From the IMG/VR virus record IMGVR_UViG_3300031722_000022: a stretch of 64,000 nt of DNA; one strand, 5' to 3'. Both the position numbers and the translations under genes were made by a program. The notes beneath the pieces are model-generated. The model worked only from the letters and a program-made list of their open reading frames with translations. It ran no database searches and was not told the DNA's origin. Each line of letters opens with the position of its first letter. Positions within the stretch are counted from its first letter, which is position 1. The DNA comes from an uncultured virus (IMG/VR IMGVR_UViG_3300031722_000022) (lineage: Duplodnaviria; Heunggongvirae; Uroviricota; Caudoviricetes). Below, piece by piece: positions 3,876-38,224 of the stretch.

Positions 3876-4262
3876 ATGGAACTAAACATTACTGAATTTT
3901 TCAACAATTCTAACGCATTCGACTACTCGGCTTCAATTGCTGAAATGGGAGATAACGTAGGTATTGCTACGTGGCAGAATGCTTGCAATGCTGATTTTGT
4001 TCTATTGAGTAATGACGACGAATGCGAAAGTTTCCGCCAATATATCAAGGGCTTTGGTGCATGGAGTGACGAAGAAATTGCAGCATGGGACAATAATGAA
4101 TTGAATGCTTTGTGTATTCAGTTTGTCTCAGGTGAAATTAGGCAGTTCGAGGATGTAGCTGATAGTGACTGGGAAGAATACGAAAGGCTGTCTGAAGAAG
4201 GGCAATTAGGCGGATTGTGTAAAGGCGGTGACGATCAAGTTTATATTTATCTTAGTGAATAA
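3876..4262 (+). CDS. highly acidic early protein
   Basis: 128 aa, D/E and W rich. Confidence 0.75.
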   Translation: MELNITEFFNNSNAFDYSASIAEMGDNVGIATWQNACNADFVLLSNDDECESFRQYIKGFGAWSDEEIAAWDNNELNALCIQFVSGEIRQFEDVADSDWEEYERLSEEGQLGGLCKGGDDQVYIYLSE

Positions 4263-4275
4263 TTGAGGCTAGCAA

Positions 4276-4620
4276 ATGAAAATCAAAACTTCTGAATTGT
4301 CTGGTAATGCTTTAGATTATGCTGTCGCATTGTGCGAAGATGCGAGAGTAAATAAGGCGAGCTACCATACTGACTGGCTTATTAATGCTGATCGTAATTT
4401 TATGGCCTATGCGCCCTCTTCTGATTGGTCACAAGGCGGCCCGATTATTGATCGCGAGAAAATTAATATAAAATACGATAATTATATGTGGGGAGGTGAT
4501 CATCCCAGCGCTGTTTTTTATGAATACGCCAAAACTCCACTAATAGCAGCTATGTGTTGTTATGTAGCATCGAAGATTGGGGATTGTGTAGACATACCAG
4601 ACTCGCTTATTAACAATTAA
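4276..4620 (+). CDS. NinX/DUF2591-like phage protein
   Basis: KTSELSGNALDYAVA...YAPSSDWSQGGPII...TPLIAAM motifs recalled for this family. Confidence 0.7.
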   Translation: MKIKTSELSGNALDYAVALCEDARVNKASYHTDWLINADRNFMAYAPSSDWSQGGPIIDREKINIKYDNYMWGGDHPSAVFYEYAKTPLIAAMCCYVASKIGDCVDIPDSLINN

Positions 4621-4635
4621 TTGGAGCATTGAATA

Positions 4636-4827
4636 ATGAAAATCGAAATTAAGACCGATCCTTTGCATAAAAGCGTAGGTCACATTGTTGCACAAGTAGT
4701 AAATAACTCTTTTGCTTTCACAATGGAACGCTGGGTTAATCCTGAAGATGTAATCGAAACGATTCCCGCTGATCGAATGGCAAGGGAAGTATTTATGTTT
4801 TTCGAGCGGCAAGCAGAAAATAACTAA
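4636..4827 (+). CDS. hypothetical protein
   Basis: GGAG RBS, 63 aa. Confidence 0.55.
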   Translation: MKIEIKTDPLHKSVGHIVAQVVNNSFAFTMERWVNPEDVIETIPADRMAREVFMFFERQAENN

Positions 4828-4848
4828 TCAATCACTGGACATAATGTC

Positions 4849-5121
4849 ATGAACAAAATTACAGCATACGATGGTAATACACGCTTTGAACGTATATCAA
4901 AAGTCAAGGCGAAACAGTTGTTTAACGCTGGAAAGCCAATTGTGTTTTGTCCTGTTAAGCTTTATCCTTTTGGCGGGTTCCGCCCTTCGTGTATGATCCA
5001 AGGAGATGATGATCCTCATCAAGAGTTTGCAGACTACGTGCTACAATTTCAATGGTACAATTGCAATTGTTACGAAACAGGGTATTACACGGCGTTTTAT
5101 GTTAATAGCGAATTGATTTAA
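4849..5121 (+). CDS. hypothetical protein
   Basis: 90 aa ending YNCNCYETGYYTAFYV. Confidence 0.65.
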   Translation: MNKITAYDGNTRFERISKVKAKQLFNAGKPIVFCPVKLYPFGGFRPSCMIQGDDDPHQEFADYVLQFQWYNCNCYETGYYTAFYVNSELI

Positions 5122-5136
5122 TTGGAGCATAAAATA

Positions 5137-5333
5137 ATGAATAAGCATTCATTGCCAGGCGCGACGATGTCGCTATAGTAACCTATCATCGTAACCCTAC
5201 AAAGTATGAAATAAAATTTGGAGAAGGTGCTATTCATTATCGTGACTTTGACTCAGAAGAATGCTGTCATGATAATACAAGGATTCTTAAATCATGGTTT
5301 ATTGCTGATGATGGCTTACGTTATTATCGTTAG
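5137..5333 (+). pseudogene. frameshifted small phage gene
   Basis: GGAG RBS and ATG at 5137, but the protein-like body (AFIARRDDVAIVTYHRNPTKYEIKFGEGAIHYRDF...DDGLRYYR) is in the -1 frame; one extra base near 5143 would restore it. Confidence 0.6.
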
Positions 5334-5360
5334 ATAATGATCGGTAATAACATGATGCTA

Positions 5361-5387
5361 AAAGCCCTCGAAAGAGGGCTTTATTTT
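5361..5387 (+). terminator. intrinsic terminator ending early operon
   Basis: AAAGCCCTC-GAAA-GAGGGCTTT-ATTTT. Confidence 0.85.
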
Positions 5388-5399
5388 GCCTATAACAAT

Positions 5400-6450
5400 G
5401 ACAATAACGCACATAAACGCGCTATAACGCATTTGTTTATGCTTGGCTATACACTGCCATATGCAGCATGACAATAAGCCCTTACAGCGCCATAGCACAA
5501 GCCTGTAGGGCTATTCTACATGCTGCGTTAGCAGCCATTCCAGTTACTATTAAATGTTAGGCTATTCTAGGCTTATGTATAGAATTGTACATAAGGGCAG
5601 ATTCTATCGTGTAGTGTTATACATATAGCCCCTATGGGGCCAGCCTAACAAAGTGGCCTTCAGCCACATGGCGAGCATAGCCCATAGGGCCATTCATACA
5701 AGCGCTTCGCGCCAGGACCCCAGGCGCTTCAGCTTCGCCTAGTGCTATGAGACGAGACTATTAAATACCTGATTACTAACCCACCTACGGGGTTAAAAGG
5801 CTATCGCCTTGTTTGTGCATAAGGCGCTATGCGCTAGTAGGCAGGCACCTATGGTGCTATATGTACCAGCGCTTACAGCGCCATTAGACTGGCCCCTATG
5901 GGGCTATATAGCCATATGTGTAGATCATTATATATATGCTAATGAGTGTAGGACATGCCCCGTTAGGGGTTATATGTGGGCATGTAATGCAGTGTTATGA
6001 CTGGCTGCTATGCAGCTATTAACACGCGCCTATGGCGCTATATGTAATGACTGATAACAGTGTTATACGACGATGCGTGATACATCTATAGCAGGTTAAT
6101 AAGCGATAACTTAGTTGGTATCTTGATGCAAAGCATCTATTGGTTAAACCCCGTTACATTACACATACCCTACTACTATACTACACTATATTAACTATTA
6201 TTACATAACATATTCATTAATCATAGATTAATATTAAGCCTTAGCATTACAGATAATATTAAACACAATAACAGTTAATGTTATACACACGGCCCCATGG
6301 GGGCTAGTTCTATCCTATGCGAAGCATAGAGTATATCTATCATATGCTTATAGTTACATTTAACATAATGCTAGTTATACGTAGTTCAATGGTTACGAAG
6401 TAACAGACGATTGATAGCGCCTATGGCGCAGGGGCATGGTCGCCATGCGA
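5400..6450. repeat. array A of GC-stem, 3-nt-loop mini-hairpins
   Basis: GCCCCTATGGGGC, GCACCTATGGTGC, GCGCCTATGGCGC, GCTGCTATGCAGC, GCGCTTACAGCGC, GCGCTTCGCGC, CTATGCGAAGCATAG in a gene-free stretch. Confidence 0.85.
6358..6385 (-). promoter_or_regulatory. dif-like XerC/XerD site
   Basis: Minus strand ACTACGTATAA-CTAGCA-TTATGTTAAAT; 11-6-11 layout, XerD arm identical to E. coli dif. Confidence 0.75.
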
Positions 6451-6560
6451 CAAGGTATGTCTAACATTAAACAATATTAGTCTATTGATATTTTGGCTTT
6501 CATAAGGGATTGCTTATATAGGGTAGGGCGTGGATAAGCCACAACCCAGATAGATAACAA

Positions 6561-6584
6561 AATAGCCCTCAAAAGAGGGCTATT
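6561..6584 (-). terminator. intrinsic terminator (possibly bidirectional)
   Basis: AATAGCCCTC-AAAA-GAGGGCTATT. Confidence 0.7.
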
Positions 6585-6603
6585 GATATTGTTACACATG
6601 AAA

Positions 6604-13269: not shown

Positions 13270-13350
13270 AGCGGGTTTGCAGAATCGAACTGCGGCTTGC
13301 CAGCACCCCTTCGGATTAGGTATCCGATGCTCTCCATAAGCTAAACCCGC
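13270..13350 (-). tRNA. atypical tRNA: CCT at anticodon position, Gly-like acceptor, long variable region
   Basis: GCGGGTT/AACCCGC acceptor + U73, D arm GCTT/GAGC, anticodon arm TCGGA-TACCTAA-TCCGA, T arm GCAG-TTCGATT-CTGC; no encoded CCA. Confidence 0.7.
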
Positions 13351-13356
13351 ATTGTT

Positions 13357-13431
13357 TGGTGGTCCGCCACGGTTACGATCCGTGCCCTACGACTTATGAG
13401 GTCGTTGTTCTCACCAGTGAACTATCAGACC
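13357..13431 (-). tRNA. tRNA with CAT anticodon (Met or Ile2)
   Basis: GGTCTGA...ACGAC-CTCATAA-GTCGT...CACGG-ATCGTAA-CCGTG-GCGGACC-ACCA. Confidence 0.85.
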
Positions 13432-13442
13432 AGTAAAACTAC

Positions 13443-13471
13443 ATTATACAGCAACTTTCAGAGCATGTCAA
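13443..13471 (-). promoter_or_regulatory. sigma70 promoter for tRNA pair
   Basis: TTGACA-17-TATAAT on minus strand. Confidence 0.85.
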
Positions 13472-22612: not shown

Positions 22613-23179
22613 ATGGAAGTCAAGAAGATGCTCCTTCCGTGGATCGCCGCAGGAGCAATCGTAGCAGGAGGGAGTGTCTATCAACCAACCGATAGGCAGC
22701 TTGATTTTACATCTACATATGAAGGTTATGCGTCTGTCCCATATAAAGACATAGCTAATCCCGCAATTCTTACAGTTTGTCACGGATTGACGGATGCAGC
22801 AGCGGGTAAAGGGTGGGTCGTTAAAGATAAGCACTATACAGAAGATGAATGTAGGAACAAGGAAATTGAAGTTATAGGAGATATTGCAAAAGAAATGCAA
22901 CCACTAATTAAAGCCGATCTTGCCCAAGAGCAATACGAAATGTTAGTTGATTTCTCATTTAATCTTGGTGTTCCTAAGTTGAAGTCATCTACATTGTTAA
23001 AGAAGATCAATAAGAATGATTGTTTTGGTGCAGCAAATGAGTTTTCAAGGTGGGTAAGAAGTGGGAAGATTGTTTATCGTGGACTTGTTGTTAGGCGTTC
23101 TGCTGAGTCCGATAACTTTACTAAGTATTGTTTGCCCAATGGAACCTTTCCAACGAAAGGATTAGAATATGGAAATTAG
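22613..23179 (+). CDS. endolysin, GH24 lysozyme, probable SAR type
   Basis: EGYASVPYKD...TVCHG, DFSFNLG, SSTLLKKIN, GLVVRR; Ala/Gly-rich N-terminal anchor. Confidence 0.9.
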   Translation: MEVKKMLLPWIAAGAIVAGGSVYQPTDRQLDFTSTYEGYASVPYKDIANPAILTVCHGLTDAAAGKGWVVKDKHYTEDECRNKEIEVIGDIAKEMQPLIKADLAQEQYEMLVDFSFNLGVPKLKSSTLLKKINKNDCFGAANEFSRWVRSGKIVYRGLVVRRSAESDNFTKYCLPNGTFPTKGLEYGN

Positions 23180-23790: not shown

Positions 23791-25143
23791 ATGGGTAAGA
23801 GGGTTAGAGTAACGACAGAGATTTTCATTGAACGGTCTAAGGCAGTACATGGCGACAGATACGATTACAGCAAAGTTGAATTTACAAGGTGCAGAGACAA
23901 GGTATTGATTATCTGCCATGAGCATGGAGAGTTTTGGCAGACACCAGCGGCTCATATGGTTGGGCAAGGATGCTTCTTCTGCGCAGTCGCAGAAAATGCT
24001 AAGCAGAAAACAAAATCTACACAAGAATTCATAGAAAAGTCAAATGTAAAGCATAACAATAAGTATGATTACTCCCTTGTTGACTACAAGCACAGTAAGC
24101 AGAAAGTCAAGATAATCTGCCCTAAGCACGGGGTGTTTGAACAAAAACCTAATTCCCACTTAGACGGAAGAGGTTGTGTTAAGTGTAAAGAAGAATTTAT
24201 TGCAGACTTAAAGAGGATGACAACATCGCGGTTTATAGATAAAGCGAGGAGTGTCCACGGCGATACTTATAATTATGACTTAGTAAATTATTATCAGACA
24301 GAAGTCCCTGTTACAATAGTTTGTAATAAACACGGGGAGTTCGAACAATCCCCTCACTCACACCTTTCTGGGAACGGGTGTATGCTATGTAGGAACGAGA
24401 ACATAGGTATCCGTTGTAGGCACAACACGGAGTTGTTTATAAGCAAGGCAAGGAGCCTACATGGAGACTTGTTTGACTATTCACTAGTAGATTATAAAAC
24501 ATCAAAAGACAAGGTTGATATTAAGTGTTTTAAACATGGATTGTTCCAGCAATCTCCTAATGCACACTTAGCTGGACACACCTGCCCCACTTGTTGTGAT
24601 GAAAACTTAACTTATTTACTAAGAAGCAGCAAAGAAGAGTTTGTTGAAAAAGCAGTAAAATTACACGGCGAGAAGTATGATTATTCTGAGGTTGAATACC
24701 ATACAAGCAATGTAAAAGTTGCTATAAAGTGTAAAGAACACGGAGTATTTCTTCAAAGACCTGTGTCCCACCTAATAGGACAAGGTTGTCCATCTTGTGC
24801 AAAAATAGGGTTTGACCCATTGAAAGAAGGATTCGTATATCTTCTAGATTCTGATGATATTTTCAAAGTCGGCATAACAACAAAGCCAATAAAAGAAAGA
24901 ATATCAAAGATTAGTAGGACGACAAACATAAAATTCAAAAGCATCTTTACGAGGAGAATGGAAGGCGTTGTGGCACAGGAGGTTGAAAGAAGAATGTTAA
25001 GATGGCTCAAGGAGCAGCACCGGCAACCAAAAGAAAAATTTGATGGTTATACTGAGTGCTTTTACAAGCATAGTGACACCACAATTCCAAACATTGTTGA
25101 TAAGATAATTGAATTTGAAAAAGAGGTCTTTAATGGAAACTGA
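23791..25143 (+). CDS. homing-endonuclease-like protein (Zn-binding repeats plus GIY-YIG-like C-terminus)
   Basis: Five FIxK...HGxxYDYS...C..HG.F.Q.P..HL.G.GC..C repeats; VYLL...FKVGIT...FDGYTE. Confidence 0.8.
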   Translation: MGKRVRVTTEIFIERSKAVHGDRYDYSKVEFTRCRDKVLIICHEHGEFWQTPAAHMVGQGCFFCAVAENAKQKTKSTQEFIEKSNVKHNNKYDYSLVDYKHSKQKVKIICPKHGVFEQKPNSHLDGRGCVKCKEEFIADLKRMTTSRFIDKARSVHGDTYNYDLVNYYQTEVPVTIVCNKHGEFEQSPHSHLSGNGCMLCRNENIGIRCRHNTELFISKARSLHGDLFDYSLVDYKTSKDKVDIKCFKHGLFQQSPNAHLAGHTCPTCCDENLTYLLRSSKEEFVEKAVKLHGEKYDYSEVEYHTSNVKVAIKCKEHGVFLQRPVSHLIGQGCPSCAKIGFDPLKEGFVYLLDSDDIFKVGITTKPIKERISKISRTTNIKFKSIFTRRMEGVVAQEVERRMLRWLKEQHRQPKEKFDGYTECFYKHSDTTIPNIVDKIIEFEKEVFNGN

Positions 25144-25537
25144 AAAAGAAGATAACCCCGAGAGTATTAAAATCGTTCCAGCAACGAGTATTAATTTTGA
25201 TAGAAAAAATGATCTTATAAAAACACTTAAGAAGATTGATAAGTCTGTTGACAAATCAATTGAATTCCTTGAGCAAGTTATGCTAGATGGGAACAATGAA
25301 CTAAAAGTTAGAGTAGATTGTGCCAAAACAATCCTTGACAAAAAACTACAGATTAGTGATAGTGTAAATAAGGATAACCTCTCTCGCCTAATCGCACAGT
25401 CTAGATTATTCATGGCCCAACAAGCAGTTAATAATAAGCGTATTAAAGATGTTGGGGGAGAGGACGAAGATGAGTATAGCGTACCTCAGTACCTCCCATC
25501 CGTCATCCTCGACGCCTCAATGGTAAAGTCTATGTAG
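25133..25537 (+). CDS. putative terminase small subunit
   Basis: Helical 134 aa protein upstream of terL; position-based call. Confidence 0.5.
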   Translation: METEKEDNPESIKIVPATSINFDRKNDLIKTLKKIDKSVDKSIEFLEQVMLDGNNELKVRVDCAKTILDKKLQISDSVNKDNLSRLIAQSRLFMAQQAVNNKRIKDVGGEDEDEYSVPQYLPSVILDASMVKSM

Positions 25538-25559: not shown

Positions 25560-25588
25560 TTGACATTGTAGAAAAGTAATGATATAAT
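25560..25588 (+). promoter_or_regulatory. consensus sigma70 promoter driving ncRNA locus
   Basis: TTGACA-17-TATAAT. Confidence 0.85.
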
Positions 25589-25594
25589 GGTTGT

Positions 25595-26265
25595 AAATGA
25601 AGTAAGAAACATGCAATCGTTATTGGGAGCAATCTCTATGTTCAGGTGTCTCTTCTACGAAGATAGTCCTGTCGATTGTTGTCTAAGCGTTTCTCCTTCG
25701 CTAAGGCACGTAATGTTCTCCGCGTCAGCGAGAACGATTGTCCAAGTCATAACTCGGGACATAAACAATAAGAGTATGCGTAGGTAGTCGACGTAATAAA
25801 CTATCGAGGCGTGTGACCAACACAGCGTAATGGTGTTCCCGCATACGGTAAGCGGGAAGAATAACAGAAGCGTTGAGACATATTCTTGTTATCTCAAGGC
25901 TGTTATATCGCGGAGTCATTCTCCGAAAGCTTATAACTTGGTTATCTCCCTCGTGTACATGACGGAATAACTCAAGTGGAATTGAATATAAGCAAGACTG
26001 TACTTCCTTGGGACAGTCGCCTTCTCACGAAGGCTCTAACACATGCTAATTATTCAAGGGCGTAGCCGTAATCTGACGGTTCAATAGTTAGCAGTTGTTA
26101 GGCGGATGTGTAGTGATCCTACACGGCGAAGATTGTAAGCCAAGAGGGAAAGGCGCATGTAGGATGCTATCCGTAATGTAGCCCCTCGGTAGTCACTGTC
26201 TAATCTACTTGATTCGCAATCAGGTAATACGGACTACAGCAGGAATTAATCTCCTGTCACCTATT
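25595..26265 (+). ncRNA. large structured ncRNA candidate (GOLLD/ROOL-like size and context)
   Basis: No credible ORF; many consecutive hairpins, nested helices and possible pseudoknots between promoter and tRNA-like element. Confidence 0.65.
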
Positions 26266-26270
26266 AATTT

Positions 26271-26345
26271 GCCATGAAAACATTGATAGTGATGTGCTAG
26301 TTTTGTACACTAGATAAGACGCTGCAAGTTCGTCTCGTGGCTCCA
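26271..26345 (+). tRNA. tRNA-Thr(TGT)-like element, non-canonical D and T loops
   Basis: GCCATGA/TCGTGGC acceptor + TCCA; CTAGT-TTTGTAC-ACTAG anticodon arm. Confidence 0.7.
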
Positions 26346-26451
26346 TGAGTGCAATAGTTTAGCAAAGTAAGATTAAACGTAGTGTGAGTACGTTGTTTCG
26401 TAATAATATAAACTCATAAAACAAGAAGCTCCGTGAGGAGACATTTCATTA

Positions 26452-26486
26452 GGGCTTCTTCCTTGCGGAAGAAGCCTTTCTTTATT
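26452..26486 (+). terminator. intrinsic terminator closing ncRNA unit
   Basis: GGCTTCTTCC-TTGC-GGAAGAAGCC-TTTCTTT. Confidence 0.85.
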
Positions 26487-26499
26487 GTAGGAACATATA

Positions 26500-26715
26500 A
26501 TGAATATTCGTATTGTATCTGAGAACGGCAAGCATAAGTTATATTACGTAGAGTATAACGAGGATGGTTACGTGGAGAATATAAAAGACGAGGTCACCTT
26601 CGTCAGTAAAGAGTTTTCTGTATTTAGACAGATTCTAGCCGCAGCATCTGCTGCAATTCTGCTACCTGTCATAATGGTGAATTCCTGCAACAAAAAAATG
26701 CTAATGAAACAATAA
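26500..26715 (+). CDS. hypothetical protein
   Basis: AGGA RBS, 71 aa. Confidence 0.5.
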   Translation: MNIRIVSENGKHKLYYVEYNEDGYVENIKDEVTFVSKEFSVFRQILAAASAAILLPVIMVNSCNKKMLMKQ

Positions 26716-26717
26716 TA

Positions 26718-27833
26718 ATGCAGACTAAGATTAACGATGTGAAAATAGAAGTAGGGGGCGTGTACAAAACATGCGTTGATGGGGACATAATTGTATTGTC
26801 AAAGAGCGGTGAGTTTTCTAACATCATGTTTTTGGAAACATCCAATGAGTACTGTACGCAGACAAATAAAATAAAGTATGGGAATATAAAAGACAAAAAT
26901 AAAGACAGAACCCCACACTTTATAAAAGATTGCGTGGATGTTCACGGTGAAAAGTACTCGTATGAAAAAACAGTATTTACTATTCAATCAAACAACATAA
27001 TTGTAACTTGTCCTATTCACGGTGACTTCGAGATTCGAGCGAGTTGCCACAAGCAGGGCCAAGGCTGCGCGGCTTGTGCTCGTGATATGCATTCTTCGAA
27101 AATCACTAAAACAACGGCAGATTTCATCGCCGCGTCTAAAGTTAAGTTCGGGGACAAGTTTGTTTATACAAAAACAGAATATCAAGGGACGGATATACCT
27201 GTTATTTTAACATGCCCTGCTCATGGGGACATTGAAATAACACCAGCATCCCACAACAGGTGCATGACTGGCTGTTTGTTATGCAGTTCCGATACGATGA
27301 GTGCTCGTAGGTCTATGGAGTTTAGTGACTTTGTAATGTTGTCAAAAGAGAGGTATGGTGACGTATACTCTTATGATCCTTCAACATATATAAATATGTC
27401 TAGCAAAGCATATGTTACCTGTAAAAGACACGGTGCATGGGGAGTAATAGCTAATAGCCACGTTCATAGGACTTCTGGTTGTCCACAATGCTTGGAGGAG
27501 AGGCGTGGGCATAAAAGAAATCGAAAATGGATACTATATCTATTAGAGTCTGACGGGTTGTTTAAGGTTGGAGTATCCAGCAGGGAAAGTGCTATTGGAA
27601 GGGTAAGAGAAATAAACTCATCAGCATATCCTTTGGTATTCAAGCACGTAATGTCGTTCCAGATGCTAAGGAATGACTGCCTTGATTTAGAGGGTAAATT
27701 ACTTGCTAAATTTAGAGCGCTTGGGTGTAAAAATCCAGAGATGAAGTTTGGTGGGTACACTGAGACATTTAGTGGCCTTCCATTGAATTATGTTATTAAG
27801 ATATTCGAGGACACTGTAAGGAAAGAACAATAA
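26718..27833 (+). CDS. homing-endonuclease-like protein (Zn repeats plus GIY-YIG-like)
   Basis: HGEKYSY...CPIHG...GCxxC repeats; LYLL...FKVGVS...FGGYTETF. Confidence 0.8.
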   Translation: MQTKINDVKIEVGGVYKTCVDGDIIVLSKSGEFSNIMFLETSNEYCTQTNKIKYGNIKDKNKDRTPHFIKDCVDVHGEKYSYEKTVFTIQSNNIIVTCPIHGDFEIRASCHKQGQGCAACARDMHSSKITKTTADFIAASKVKFGDKFVYTKTEYQGTDIPVILTCPAHGDIEITPASHNRCMTGCLLCSSDTMSARRSMEFSDFVMLSKERYGDVYSYDPSTYINMSSKAYVTCKRHGAWGVIANSHVHRTSGCPQCLEERRGHKRNRKWILYLLESDGLFKVGVSSRESAIGRVREINSSAYPLVFKHVMSFQMLRNDCLDLEGKLLAKFRALGCKNPEMKFGGYTETFSGLPLNYVIKIFEDTVRKEQ

Positions 27834-29245
27834 TGGCTAAAAAGAAACTTCCTGTATATGGCCCTGCCTCTGAGACACAAAGACAATTCTTAACGCATGA
27901 AGCACAGTTTGTAATATACGGCGGAGGAGCTGGATCAGGGAAGTCTCACTTAGCTTTGATGTATTCCCTAGCCTTCAAGGATGATCCAGAGTTCCGTGCT
28001 GTCTACATCAGGCAATCTTCCGTGCAACTTTCACAAGCAGGTGGTTTATGGATGGAAATGCAATCCATGTATAAGCCATTCAATCCAGCATTCCGACAAG
28101 ATCGCATGTCTGCAACATTTCCTACTGGTGCATTCGTACAGTGTAAAACTCTTGGTGCTGACAGAGAAATTACTAACTTCGATGGTGGACAATATAGCCT
28201 TGTAGTATTTGATGAGTGCCAATGGCATTCCCAAGAGCAGGTTATGTATTTGCTCTCTCGTATTCGTTCTAAGGCTAAAGGCCCACACAAACTCATAGCA
28301 ACTTGCAATCCGCACCCCGATTCCTTCTTACTGAAATTTGTGACTTGGTATCTGGATCAAGAGACAGGTATTCCAATCCACGAAAGGTCTGGTGTAACTA
28401 GGTATTTCTCGCAGTACCGTGGGGATTTGGTATTTGCTGATACAGCAGAAGAAATGCTTGAGAAGTATCCAAATACAACACCAATGACCTACACATTCGT
28501 TGCTGCTAATATTTATAGCAATCCTGTATTAATGCAACGTGATCCAGAATATGTTCGTCGTCTTGAGAATCTTAAACGTGCTGAACGTGATCGTCTGCTT
28601 TTAGGATCATGGTTTGCTAGAGAAACAGCAAGCAAGTATTGGCAACGTGAATGGGTAGAACTTGTAGACTTTCCTCCTGATGACGCTGTGCGTCGTGTTA
28701 GAGCATGGGACTTAGCTGCAACACTTCCGAGTGAGAGCAACAAAGACCCGGATTATACTTGCGGTGTGAAAGTATCACGCAATAAATTTGGTGTCTATAC
28801 GGTGGAGGATGCCTATCGCTTCAGAAAGTTATCCGGCGATGTCCTCGATGAAATTGTTAAAACAGCAAGAGATGATGGTGTTGATGAGGTTCAAGTAATG
28901 ATTCCTGGGGAAATCGGCGCAGGCCGCTCTTGGTCACAGCACGTTATCCGCGTTCTATCTGAGAATGGTATTCCTGCAAGGCTCGTCCAAGTGTCGGGGC
29001 ATAAAGGAAAGATTTCAAGATTTCTTCCATTCTCTAGCATGTCGGAAGTAGGTAATGTTAAGGTTGTTAGAGGTGACTGGAATGATTGGTTTTATAATGA
29101 GTTAGAATCCTTTGACGGGGGTAGAAAAGGCCATGACGATGCTGTTGACGCATGTGCTGACGCTTTCAGCACACTTGCTAAAACATCTGTGTTGCCAATG
29201 TTTATTCTCCCCTCCATGACAAAGGAGTCCCCTCTCGTCCATTAA
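27833..29245 (+). CDS. terL: terminase large subunit
   Basis: YGGGAGSGKS Walker A, VVFDE Walker B, ATCNP, RAWDLA and HDDAVDA nuclease motifs. Confidence 0.95.
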   Translation: MAKKKLPVYGPASETQRQFLTHEAQFVIYGGGAGSGKSHLALMYSLAFKDDPEFRAVYIRQSSVQLSQAGGLWMEMQSMYKPFNPAFRQDRMSATFPTGAFVQCKTLGADREITNFDGGQYSLVVFDECQWHSQEQVMYLLSRIRSKAKGPHKLIATCNPHPDSFLLKFVTWYLDQETGIPIHERSGVTRYFSQYRGDLVFADTAEEMLEKYPNTTPMTYTFVAANIYSNPVLMQRDPEYVRRLENLKRAERDRLLLGSWFARETASKYWQREWVELVDFPPDDAVRRVRAWDLAATLPSESNKDPDYTCGVKVSRNKFGVYTVEDAYRFRKLSGDVLDEIVKTARDDGVDEVQVMIPGEIGAGRSWSQHVIRVLSENGIPARLVQVSGHKGKISRFLPFSSMSEVGNVKVVRGDWNDWFYNELESFDGGRKGHDDAVDACADAFSTLAKTSVLPMFILPSMTKESPLVH

Positions 29246-37438: not shown

Positions 37439-37472
37439 CAATATCTTAATAATAATAAATTCTCTCACAGCC

Positions 37473-37501
37473 TTGACATACTGTTAAAGTTGTGGTATAA
37501 T
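37473..37501 (+). promoter_or_regulatory. consensus sigma70 promoter
   Basis: TTGACA-17-TATAAT. Confidence 0.8.
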
Positions 37502-37528
37502 TGTTGTATAACAATTGAAGAGGATGCC

Positions 37529-38224
37529 ATGACAAAACGTAAAGACTATGCCGGTAATAAATATGGCCGACTCACAGCAAAAGAGTTTTCTCATTCAGAG
37601 AATGGCACGACATTCTGGGTATTCGTTTGTGAGTGTGGAACAGAGGTTACGCGTAGAGTTAATAATGTAACCTCTGGAAATACAACAAGTTGTGGCTGCT
37701 ATAAGACAGAAGTTATGTCTGAATACGATAGAACAACCCACGGCCTTTACTACACACCGTTTTGGCATTGTTTTCATGGGGCTAGACACCGTTGTGAGAA
37801 TACCAATGACACCGACTACAAAGACTATGGTGGTCGTGGAATTAAGTTTTGTTGGGAATCCTTAGAAGAATTTGCTGGAGATTTGCAGGACACGTATTTT
37901 ACAGGCGCAACATTAGAGCGTATTGATGTAGATGGGAACTACTGCAAAGAAAACTGTAAATGGGAAACACGAAAGAAACAGGCAAGGAATAGGAGGAAAA
38001 CAAAGTCCAACACATCTGGAGTTACAGGTGTTGGCTTTAATGCAGAAGATAATAGGTGGTTTGCTCACTGGAGGTCATTAGACGGTAAGCACGAATCAAA
38101 ATCATTTTCTGCTAGGAAGTACGGTAATAACGTTGCCTTTGAACTTGCATGCGCTGCAAGAACACACGCAATTGAGAAACTTAATTCCGATGGTGCGGGA
38201 TATTCTGAAAAACATGGTTTATAA
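37529..38224 (+). CDS. HNH/AP2 homing endonuclease
   Basis: YGRLT...CECG...YGGRGI...LERIDVDGNY...NCKW...NTSGVTGV. Confidence 0.85.
   Translation: MTKRKDYAGNKYGRLTAKEFSHSENGTTFWVFVCECGTEVTRRVNNVTSGNTTSCGCYKTEVMSEYDRTTHGLYYTPFWHCFHGARHRCENTNDTDYKDYGGRGIKFCWESLEEFAGDLQDTYFTGATLERIDVDGNYCKENCKWETRKKQARNRRKTKSNTSGVTGVGFNAEDNRWFAHWRSLDGKHESKSFSARKYGNNVAFELACAARTHAIEKLNSDGAGYSEKHGL

What the first reader, a model, noticed from the sequence alone, without database searches (positions are those of the whole stretch)
25560..26486. Large ornate ncRNA transcription unit between the putative terS and terL
Seen: a consensus promoter, ~670 nt with no credible ORF, a tRNA-like element and a strong terminator. 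Helices include GCAATCG/CGATTGT (25613/25673) enclosing a GCAA tetraloop, TTCCCGC/GCGGGAA (25836/25852), ATAACAG/CTGTTAT (25861/25900), GACTGT/ACAGTC, GCCTTC/GAAGGC and TGCTAATTATT/AATAGTTAGCA (26044/26083). Crossing pairings TTGAATA/TATTCAA (25982/26051) and TCCGTA/TACGGA (26170/26228) are also possible. Known: GOLLD and ROOL are large phage-associated, often tRNA-adjacent RNAs of unknown function. This is either a divergent member or a new class.
Basis: partly seen in the sequence, partly recalled or inferred. Interest (0 to 1): 0.85.

Follow-up and report, generated by a model that had tools for sequence, protein, structure and literature searches.

The report
Phage tRNA operon with giant structured leader
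This is a real non-coding RNA unit in a phage: its tRNA operon, where a weak threonine tRNA sits behind about 675 bases of conserved hairpins that match no known RNA family.

Summary
A perfect sigma-70 promoter (25560-25588) and a strong terminator (26451-26478) bracket about 890 nt with no credible ORF. All six named hairpin helices appear in the predicted fold.

The "tRNA-like element" is a low-scoring tRNA-Thr(UGU) at 26271-26342. It scores 35.4 bits on Rfam's tRNA model, whose cut-off is 29.

Flanking-gene orthology and 12 of 18 TerL relatives show that this slot is the lineage's tRNA operon. The 70% TerL relative L018 carries Met, Tyr and Thr tRNAs there.

In the window phage and its 93% relative L002, about 600-675 nt of hairpin modules precede the tRNA. 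I curated 15 helices with 90 pairs: 13 pairs changed on both sides and kept pairing, against 0-2 when the partner was slid out of register. Loops stay fixed while stems are swapped in up to four alleles.

Wastewater contigs show that some modules come and go.

No GOLLD, ROOL or other Rfam family matches, but those scans' filters also missed this tRNA. One globally folded "ornate" RNA is not shown; a modular, probably processed, stable-RNA array fits better. Expression is untested. I rate it a new variant of a known kind, of moderate interest.

The parts
25560..25588 (+). Sigma-70 promoter with extended -10; the transcript start near 25595 is inferred
   Evidence: 12 of 12 matches with TG. The same perfect promoter is in L002 at 4198-4226; L018 has an 11 of 12 match at 4153-4180.
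25613..25679 (+).
   Evidence: Present in local and full folds. Replaced by a shorter, unlike stretch in L002. Kept at 4-7 differences in two wastewater contigs.
25680..25708 (+). Hairpin B: 9-nt loop ending CTCCTT (the anti-Shine-Dalgarno-like word)
   Evidence: Four alleles keep the loop on different stems: window, L002, and loose ends in X2 and X3. Of 10 pairs, 3 are compensatory versus L002.
25715..25735 (+). Hairpin C: loop GCGTCAGC
   Evidence: 3 of 6 pairs are compensatory versus L002. A third stem appears in an X3 loose end, and X4 shows 25719 T>G together with 25731 A>C.
25739..25761 (+). Hairpin D
   Evidence: 2 of 5 pairs are compensatory versus L002.
25777..25834 (+). Module E (two weak hairpins)
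   Evidence: Local fold. Part of the block 25737-25859, which four wastewater contigs keep at 4-14 differences. L002 lacks about 45 nt of it (my reading).
25836..25858 (+).
   Evidence: 1 compensatory pair and 1 end pair lost versus L002.
25859..25909 (+).
   Evidence: Present in the fold. L002 has an unlike 67-nt hairpin in its place. It is skipped in two wastewater contigs, at joints 25857>25905 and 25864>25930.
25911..25925 (+). Hairpin H: loop TCATT
   Evidence: 2 of 5 pairs are compensatory versus L002. A third stem lies in the letters between an X3 joint.
25929..25993 (+). Core I: the 65-nt long hairpin that is the best-conserved non-tRNA part
   Evidence: 92% column identity with L002. 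There is 1 compensatory pair in the closing helix and 3 pairs broken on one side. A covariance model finds it only in the window and L002 among 69 sources.
25996..26034 (+).
   Evidence: Present in folds. L002 has hairpins at the same places with other stems and shifted register, so they were not counted.
26035..26257 (+).
   Evidence: Present in folds. Only L and N align with L002. One wastewater contig joins 26018 to 26281 with 20 other letters, so the block is dispensable there.
26271..26345 (+). tRNA-Thr(UGU), low-scoring, with encoded CCA (26343-26345)
   Evidence: Rfam tRNA model: 35.4 bits, cut-off 29, at 26271-26342. ARAGORN calls it only at an 80% threshold. The ortholog in L002 at 4817-4889 scores 53.4 bits.
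26357..26440 (+). Trailer hairpins O1, O2 and P
   Evidence: Present in folds. 87% identical to L002. Stems do not vary, so there is no covariation test.
26451..26486 (+). Intrinsic terminator
   Evidence: Versus L002, 1 pair is compensatory and 3 are one-sided changes that keep pairing. L018 has a like terminator at 4812-4838.
25109..25537 (+).
   Evidence: No Pfam or PHROG family. 37% identical to the gene before L018's tRNA operon, E 1e-24.
26500..26715 (+). Downstream flanking gene (71 aa)
   Evidence: 34% identical to the gene after L018's tRNA operon, E 7e-10.

Best explanation
The unit is this phage's tRNA operon, in a form where nearly all of the transcript is non-tRNA RNA.

Proposed mechanism (inferred steps are marked):
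1. Host RNA polymerase starts at the consensus extended -10 promoter. This is inferred from the sequence.
2. It makes about 890 nt: a roughly 675-nt untranslated leader of at least 15 hairpin modules, then a low-scoring tRNA-Thr(UGU) with encoded CCA, then a roughly 105-nt trailer, and it stops at the intrinsic terminator.
3. I infer that host tRNA-processing enzymes cut out the tRNA.
4. I infer that the hairpin modules survive as one or several stable RNAs, like the abundant processed ncRNA2 inside the tRNA cluster of phage PAK_P3.

Shown: stems are kept by compensatory change while loops stay fixed, so the loops are the likely contact sites. The CTCCTT loop of hairpin B and the core hairpin I are the best candidates.

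What the loops bind is unknown. My best guess is the translation or transcription machinery.
For: Boundaries:
- The perfect promoter and the terminator are kept in L002 and L018.

Slot identity:
- Both flanking genes are orthologous to those around L018's tRNA operon, which carries Met, Tyr and Thr.
- 12 of 18 TerL-relative loci examined have tRNAs upstream of terL; 8 of those 18 include Thr(tgt).
- A further 5 of 7 loci have tRNAs there; 4 of those 7 include Thr(tgt).

tRNA:
- 35.4 bits in the window and 53.4 bits in L002.

Selection on structure:
- Across 15 helices and 90 pairs: 62 unchanged, 13 compensatory, 7 one-sided changes that keep pairing, 8 broken.
- 13 of 14 double changes keep pairing.
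- With the partner slid by 1-3 positions there are 0-2 compensatory pairs, and 27-34 pairs formed in both sequences instead of 82.
- Third and fourth alleles of hairpins B, C and H in wastewater contigs carry new stems on the same loops.

Strand:
- 12 G.T pairs against 2 A.C juxtapositions.

Not coding.

Precedent:
- PAK_P3 ncRNA2 lies between tRNA-Tyr and tRNA-Gln upstream of terL.
- It is an abundant processed species of about 120 nt on northern blots (PMC10914365, passages read).
Against: - There is no transcript evidence of any kind. No listed run is on record as RNA.
- Only two distinct full-length sequences exist.
- The wastewater contigs come from one study, are probably DNA, and could be read only as printed fragments.
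- I chose the 15 helices by eye because they form in both sequences, which favours pairing.
- Hairpins J and K1 shift register and were dropped before the count.
- H1, G, K2 and M have no alignable partner in L002.
- 8 of 90 pairs are broken, 3 of them inside the conserved core.
- The minus strand folds further below its shuffles (z -8.02) than the plus strand (z -4.39).
- Processing into small RNAs, and any trans function, are inferences.
- The tRNA lacks the usual U8, A14, G18-G19 and U55 (read from the alignment), so it may not decode.
Confidence: 0.6

Rival explanations
1. The roughly 675-nt part is one globally folded, possibly multimeric large RNA with a covalently linked tRNA. It would be a new class that works like GOLLD or ROOL.
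For: - It is phage-encoded, 600-700 nt, and joined to a tRNA. GOLLD and ROOL are described as encoded in phages and prophages, often near tRNA islands; GOLLD has a less conserved 5' region and sometimes tRNAs in its linker (bioRxiv 10.1101/2024.12.08.627333, passages read).
- The stems covary.
- The consensus promoter fits high abundance.
Against: - No GOLLD or ROOL match.
- No long-range, junction or crossing helix is supported; all covarying helices are local hairpins.
- Whole modules are absent or replaced in relatives: hairpin G, and the block 26019-26280. That is hard to square with one compact fold.
Confidence: 0.2
2. The leader acts only in cis. Its dense hairpins and a leader element (hairpin B) protect a long untranslated transcript from Rho termination and nucleases, and so set tRNA-Thr output. 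It has no trans-acting product.
For: - Hairpins with CT-rich loops lie 44-189 nt after sigma-70-like promoters in the TerL-relative loci (66 returned; the scripts also read a few other fetched loci): 9 on the terL strand against 2.97 expected, and 0 on the other strand against 1.28 expected.
- L049 and L061 versus L051 carry the same loop on different stems, ahead of ordinary tRNA clusters.
Against: - 675 nt is far more than the roughly 150-nt leader that serves three called tRNAs (plus one uncalled tRNA-like) in L018.
- Several other loops and the core hairpin are conserved too.
- The 9 hits include near-duplicate loci and two overlapping hits, so the enrichment is weak.
Confidence: 0.12
3. 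It is the decaying remnant of a larger tRNA cluster: dead tRNAs and spacers with no function of their own.
For: - The slot holds 3-21 tRNAs in relatives.
- The window's tRNA-Thr scores 18 bits lower than L002's.
- Much of the leader is barely alignable between phages whose TerL is 93% identical.
Against: - 13 of 14 double changes keep pairing, and loops are fixed across up to four alleles.
- No part outside 26271-26342 matches the tRNA model, even in scans of 161-261 nt.
- The core is 92% identical where terL third codon positions are 61% identical.
Confidence: 0.05
4. It is a DNA-level element beside the terminase genes, such as a packaging site, an origin or a homing-endonuclease target.
For: - It lies upstream of terL between two homing-endonuclease-like genes.
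- The minus strand also folds well.
Against: - The promoter, tRNA and terminator all point the same way.
- G.T pairs outnumber A.C juxtapositions 12 to 2, which fits a + strand RNA rather than duplex DNA.
- In relatives the slot is a tRNA operon.
Confidence: 0.03

Closest known systems
GOLLD RNA (Rfam RF02032)
   Same: Phage-encoded, several hundred nt, next to or joined with tRNAs, with a variable 5' part (passages read).
   Different: The model has no match in the window's twin record or in the two relatives' records, nor in the Rfam scans. No conserved multi-helix 3' domain or pseudoknot is seen here; only local hairpins covary.
ROOL RNA (Rfam RF03087)
   Same: Phage or prophage RNA near tRNA islands, of unknown function and reported as very abundant (passages read).
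   Different: No match. The control genomes also gave no hit, so that negative is weak. No pseudoknots are supported here.
PAK_P3 ncRNA2 / sRNA2 in the Nankokuvirus tRNA cluster
   Same: A non-tRNA stable RNA inside the tRNA operon upstream of terL in a phage with 43% TerL identity. It is abundant and processed (PMC10914365).
   Different: It is about 120 nt, not 675. By my reading it is itself tRNA-like (acceptor stem, T arm, CCA). I ran no direct sequence comparison with the window's leader. The core-hairpin model found nothing in the PAK_P3 locus.
Ordinary phage tRNA operons of TerL relatives (L018, L015, L049, L051)
   Same: Same slot, same flanking genes (L018), a consensus promoter, a hairpin-rich leader and trailer, a terminator, and tRNA-Thr(UGU).
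   Different: They carry 3-8 tRNAs and leaders of about 150-230 nt. The window carries one weak tRNA and a 675-nt leader.
Stable RNA species 1 and 2 of the phage T4 tRNA region
   Same: Small non-tRNA RNAs co-transcribed and processed with phage tRNAs. This is recalled; no call or paper was consulted.
   Different: No sequence or structure comparison was made here.
Phage K long non-coding RNAs
   Same: [quoted passage not shown]
   Different: Staphylococcus phage; no comparison was made here.

Membership tests
GOLLD (RF02032) | Match to the family covariance model at or above its 150-bit cut-off | tested here: not met
   No match in G001 (identical to the window here) or G002. G003 gave only 4.9 bits. 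Nothing appeared in the Rfam scans.
GOLLD (RF02032) | Phage or prophage location near tRNAs | tested here: met
   The unit ends in tRNA-Thr. The phage context is terminase, portal and lysis genes.
GOLLD (RF02032) | Universally conserved, elaborate 3' domain | tested here: inconclusive
   Only two full sequences are available. The conserved parts are single hairpins.
ROOL (RF03087) | Match to the family covariance model at or above its 99.1-bit cut-off | tested here: not met
   0 of 3 records matched at E <= 10 (the controls gave no hit anywhere). Nothing appeared.
tRNA (RF00005) | Covariance-model score at or above the 29-bit cut-off, over the full length | tested here: met
   35.4 bits, model positions 1-71, at 26271-26342. 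Filters lost this match in the larger scans.
tRNA (RF00005) | Detection by ARAGORN at default settings | tested here: not met
   Not called at default or with -ps. Called Thr(tgt) at the 80% threshold, in another acceptor register.
tRNA (RF00005) | Conserved tertiary nucleotides (U8, A14, G18-G19, U55, G53-C61) | tested here: not met
   Read from the alignment: A at position 8, no GG in the D loop, G at position 55, and a marked non-standard pair in the T stem.
Phage tRNA operon of this TerL lineage | Same slot between orthologous flanking genes | tested here: met
   Upstream gene 37% identical (E 1e-24) and downstream gene 34% identical (E 7e-10) to those around L018's tRNA operon.
Phage tRNA operon of this TerL lineage | Own promoter and intrinsic terminator | tested here: met
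Any other Rfam 15 family (introns, ribozymes, tmRNA, RNase P, riboswitches, sRNAs) | Match at the gathering score | tested here: not met
   0 matches in the window at gathering. Chunk scans at E <= 5 gave only far-sub-threshold hits, mostly on the terminator.

The most novel reading that the evidence does not exclude
The roughly 675-nt leader is a new class of large phage RNA covalently linked to a tRNA, functionally akin to GOLLD and ROOL. Its conserved loops, such as the anti-Shine-Dalgarno-like CTCCTT loop, would engage the host translation machinery or a defence nuclease that targets it, and its tRNA-shaped end would tether or process it.
Probability: 0.2. Interest if true: 0.8.

Novelty: new variant of a known kind. 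Interest (0 to 1): 0.5.

Why it matters
Phage tRNA clusters are now read as counter-defence tools. I saw only the search listing and abstract starts for eLife 2023, PMC10264068, and Nat Commun 2024, PMC11555353. The large RNAs that sit beside such clusters (GOLLD, ROOL) still have no known function.

Here a tRNA operon has been almost wholly given over to non-tRNA hairpins that are kept by selection. The phage clade is small and tractable, and natural variants already show which modules can be lost.

If the RNA is expressed, it gives a simple system to ask what non-tRNA passengers of phage tRNA operons do. It also lets one test whether the CT-rich leader hairpin shared with distant relatives is a general control element of such operons.

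Tried and rejected
Searches for more relatives:
- DNA search of GenBank phages with the window unit found no match. With the L002 unit it found only tRNA-sized matches.
- Exact-word scans gave only L002's contig in viral contigs or nothing, and nothing in genome contigs.
- The TerL scan of metagenome contigs gave only copies identical to the window.
- blastn of both units against 65 relatives' loci found only tRNA matches.
- The core-hairpin covariance model found no relative beyond the window and L002 in 69 sources.

Expression:
- No RNA holder was listed.
- The four wastewater runs were laid as contigs and are probably DNA.
- Parts without cover, and the higher depth over the unit than over its flanks, are not used as evidence.

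Alignment:
- MAFFT misaligned the diverged hairpins.
- mafft-qinsi was not usable.
- My two structure-weighted alignments were still partly wrong. I therefore anchored helices on their loops and counted by coordinates.

Other ideas dropped:
- Internal repeats: none of note.
- Copies of the modules elsewhere in the window: none beyond promoter similarity with 37454-37530.
- A simple motif search for the loop words was swamped by the antisense of ribosome-binding sites.
- A 5'-3' closing helix (25596-25603 with 26443-26450) is invariant or loses a pair in L002, so it is untestable.
- terS identity of the 142-aa gene: no family hit and no similarity to the PAK_P3 gene in the same position.

Full report
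**What is there**

The window is a lytic-type phage genome. Around the finding lie these genes:
- a lysozyme at 22613-23179 and a spanin-like gene
- a homing-endonuclease-like gene at 23791-25143
- a 142-aa gene with no family hit at 25109-25537
- the finding itself
- a 71-aa gene at 26500-26715
- a second endonuclease-like gene at 26718-27833
- terL at 27833-29245 and the portal gene from 29372

The promoter at 25560-25588 matches the sigma-70 consensus at 12 of 12 positions, with TG upstream of the -10 box. The terminator at 26451-26478 has a 12-bp stem and a T-rich tail. Sites within one mismatch of this consensus number 11 in the window, against 0.73 expected. One of them drives the phage's other tRNA pair, Met and Arg, at 13270-13431 on the minus strand.

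Between promoter and terminator the longest ORFs are 66, 64 and 46 aa. The + frames carry 18-24 stops each. Six small ORFs from the window and L002 hit no Pfam family and only one PHROG, at E 0.086.

The region folds below its shuffles on both strands: z -4.39 on + and -8.02 on -, from 20 shuffles each.

**The tRNA-like element is a tRNA**

The whole-window Rfam scan and a 1.2-kb scan at E <= 10 reported no tRNA here. ARAGORN at default settings called none either. When only 106 nt were searched, the Rfam tRNA model matched 26271-26342 over its full length at 35.4 bits. Its cut-off is 29.

The filters of the larger scans had lost this match. That softens every other Rfam negative in this report.

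The gene has these features:
- a 7-bp acceptor stem
- a UGU anticodon
- an encoded CCA

It lacks the usual U8, A14, G18-G19 and U55 (read). ARAGORN calls it Thr(tgt) only at an 80% threshold.

**Relatives**

One held virus record (G001) and two metagenome contigs are 100% identical over the unit. The only distinct close relative is L002, an 80-kb IMG/VR contig with 93% TerL identity. It has:
- the same perfect promoter and a terminator
- a clean tRNA-Thr(UGU) at 53.4 bits
- a leader of about 585 nt

Sequence identity to the window is about 87% in two blocks, 25905-25994 and 26372-26519. Elsewhere it is poor.

A TerL-profile scan of IMG/VR returned 66 loci. Of the 18 closest that I examined, 12 have tRNAs upstream of terL, and 8 of the 18 include Thr(tgt). 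The six without tRNAs include one locus with no upstream sequence. Of 7 further loci, 5 have tRNAs and 4 include Thr(tgt).

L018 (70% TerL identity) shows the same architecture gene for gene:
- a 141-aa gene
- an 11 of 12 promoter
- a leader of about 150 nt
- tRNA-Met, tRNA-Tyr, an uncalled tRNA-like stretch, and tRNA-Thr
- a trailer and terminator
- an 80-aa gene, an endonuclease-sized gene, then terL

Its two flanking genes are 37% (E 1e-24) and 34% (E 7e-10) identical to the window's. The finding therefore sits in the tRNA-operon slot of this lineage.

**Is the leader under selection?**

MAFFT and my own structure-weighted alignments misplaced the diverged hairpins. I therefore anchored 15 helices on their loops and counted by coordinates.

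| Class of pair (90 in all) | Count |
|---|---|
| Unchanged | 62 |
| Changed on both sides, still paired | 13 |
| Changed on one side, still paired | 7 |
| Broken, one side changed | 7 |
| Broken, both sides changed | 1 |

So 13 of 14 double changes keep pairing. The binomial p is 2.6e-5 against a chance rate of 6/16. This is not corrected for my choice of helices.

With the 3' partner slid by 1-3 positions there are 0-2 compensatory pairs, and 27-34 pairs formed in both sequences instead of 82. G.T pairs outnumber A.C juxtapositions 12 to 2, which fits the + strand as the RNA. terL third codon positions are 61% identical, so the two phages are diverged enough for this test.

I dropped hairpins J and K1 because their register shifts. 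I dropped H1, G, K2 and M because L002 has no alignable partner.

**Independent alleles**

Four wastewater runs from one study (contigs, probably DNA) hold relatives of every module from 25612 to 26534 at 80-100% identity. The printed fragments add these alleles:
- Hairpin B: two further 10-bp stems, unlike each other and unlike the window and L002, on a loop that again ends CTCCTT.
- Hairpin C: a third stem on the same loop. Another contig carries the paired change 25719 T>G with 25731 A>C.
- Hairpin H: a third stem on the loop TCATT.

The same contigs show modules coming and going:
- Hairpin G is skipped in two contigs.
- One contig joins 26018 to 26281 and then 26345 to 26418.
- In others, the 3' end of a canonical tRNA, or a terminator-like hairpin, directly precedes the tRNA-Thr.

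**One fold or many modules?**

Every helix with covariation is a local hairpin. A possible 5'-3' closing helix is invariant or weakened in L002. Together with the module turnover, this favours an array of semi-independent hairpins around a conserved core, hairpin I at 25929-25993 (92% identical to L002).

A covariance model of that core found nothing beyond the window and L002 in 69 sources totalling 777 kb. The leader family is therefore confined to this small clade.

**Known families**

- GOLLD (RF02032) gave no match in the three records.
- ROOL (RF03087) also gave none, but its control genomes gave no hit either.
- Chunk scans of the leader and trailer at E <= 5 gave only far-sub-threshold hits.

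By the passages I read, GOLLD and ROOL are phage or prophage RNAs that often lie near tRNA islands. GOLLD has a less conserved 5' region and sometimes tRNAs in its linker. The resemblance here is in setting and size, not in sequence or demonstrated architecture.

The nearest experimental precedent is PAK_P3, which has 43% TerL identity. Its tRNA cluster upstream of terL holds ncRNA2 between tRNA-Tyr and tRNA-Gln. That RNA is reported as an abundant processed species of about 120 nt late in infection (PMC10914365, passages read).

**A shared leader element**

Hairpins with CT-rich loops also follow sigma-70-like promoters at the head of ordinary tRNA operons in distant relatives. L049 and L061 carry the same 9-nt loop as L051 on a different stem. 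L050, L016 and L070 have similar hairpins.

Across the TerL-relative loci fetched by then, such hairpins within 200 nt after a promoter number 9 on the terL strand against 2.97 expected, and 0 on the other strand against 1.28 expected. Near-duplicate loci inflate this count, so I treat it as suggestive only. The loop resembles the anti-Shine-Dalgarno end of 16S rRNA (recalled). What it binds is unknown.

**Verdict**

The unit is real, non-coding and under selection for RNA structure. It is best described as a phage tRNA-Thr operon with an exceptionally long, modular, covarying leader.

It is not a detectable member of GOLLD, ROOL or any other Rfam family. A new large-RNA class remains possible at about 0.2. 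Expression and function are untested.

Noticed in passing
window 23791-25143 and 26718-27833; L002 5271-6008: Free-standing homing-endonuclease-like genes flank the unit. They carry DUF723 and treble-clef zinc-finger domains, and match PHROG endonuclease and HNH families. L002 has a different HNH gene in the slot before terL, so this neighbourhood is a hot spot for selfish genes.
   Followed up: partly
L002 about 6095-6327; L018 about 6366-6535: terL of the relatives is split into two ORFs by an insert of about 170-230 nt near codon 40. The window's terL is uninterrupted. The L002 insert matched no Rfam intron family at E <= 5, so it could be a small unclassified intron.
   Followed up: partly
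window 13270-13471 (minus strand): The phage's two clean tRNAs, Met(cat) and Arg(cct), sit directly behind another 12 of 12 consensus promoter. Both stable-RNA units of this phage therefore use perfect promoters.
   Followed up: no
window 5122-6603: A 1.5-kb stretch has no ORF of 70 aa or more. It holds several terminator-like hairpins on both strands and lies between convergently arranged coding blocks.
   Followed up: no
L018 about 4515-4600: A cloverleaf-like stretch between tRNA-Tyr and tRNA-Thr has a T arm, an encoded CCA and an anticodon loop reading CTTAAAA. ARAGORN does not call it.
   Followed up: no
L076 (PAK_P3) 1808-1927: The published sRNA2 reads as a tRNA-like RNA: a 7-bp acceptor stem, a canonical T arm, CCA, and a long insert in place of the anticodon arm. 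I did not check whether this is already in print.
   Followed up: no
window 26271-26342 (method note): A 35.4-bit tRNA above Rfam's cut-off was missed by the 64-kb gathering scan and by the 1.2-kb E-value scan. It was found only when 106 nt were searched. Negative Rfam scans of long stretches can hide odd tRNAs.
   Followed up: yes
L049 2417-2435, L051 2858-2888, L061 2894-2912, L050 2640-2668, L016 5855-5877, L070 2006-2031: Hairpins with CT-rich loops follow consensus promoters at the head of tRNA operons or of the terL-proximal operon in distant TerL relatives. The stems differ while the loop is kept. This may be a shared leader element.
   Followed up: partly
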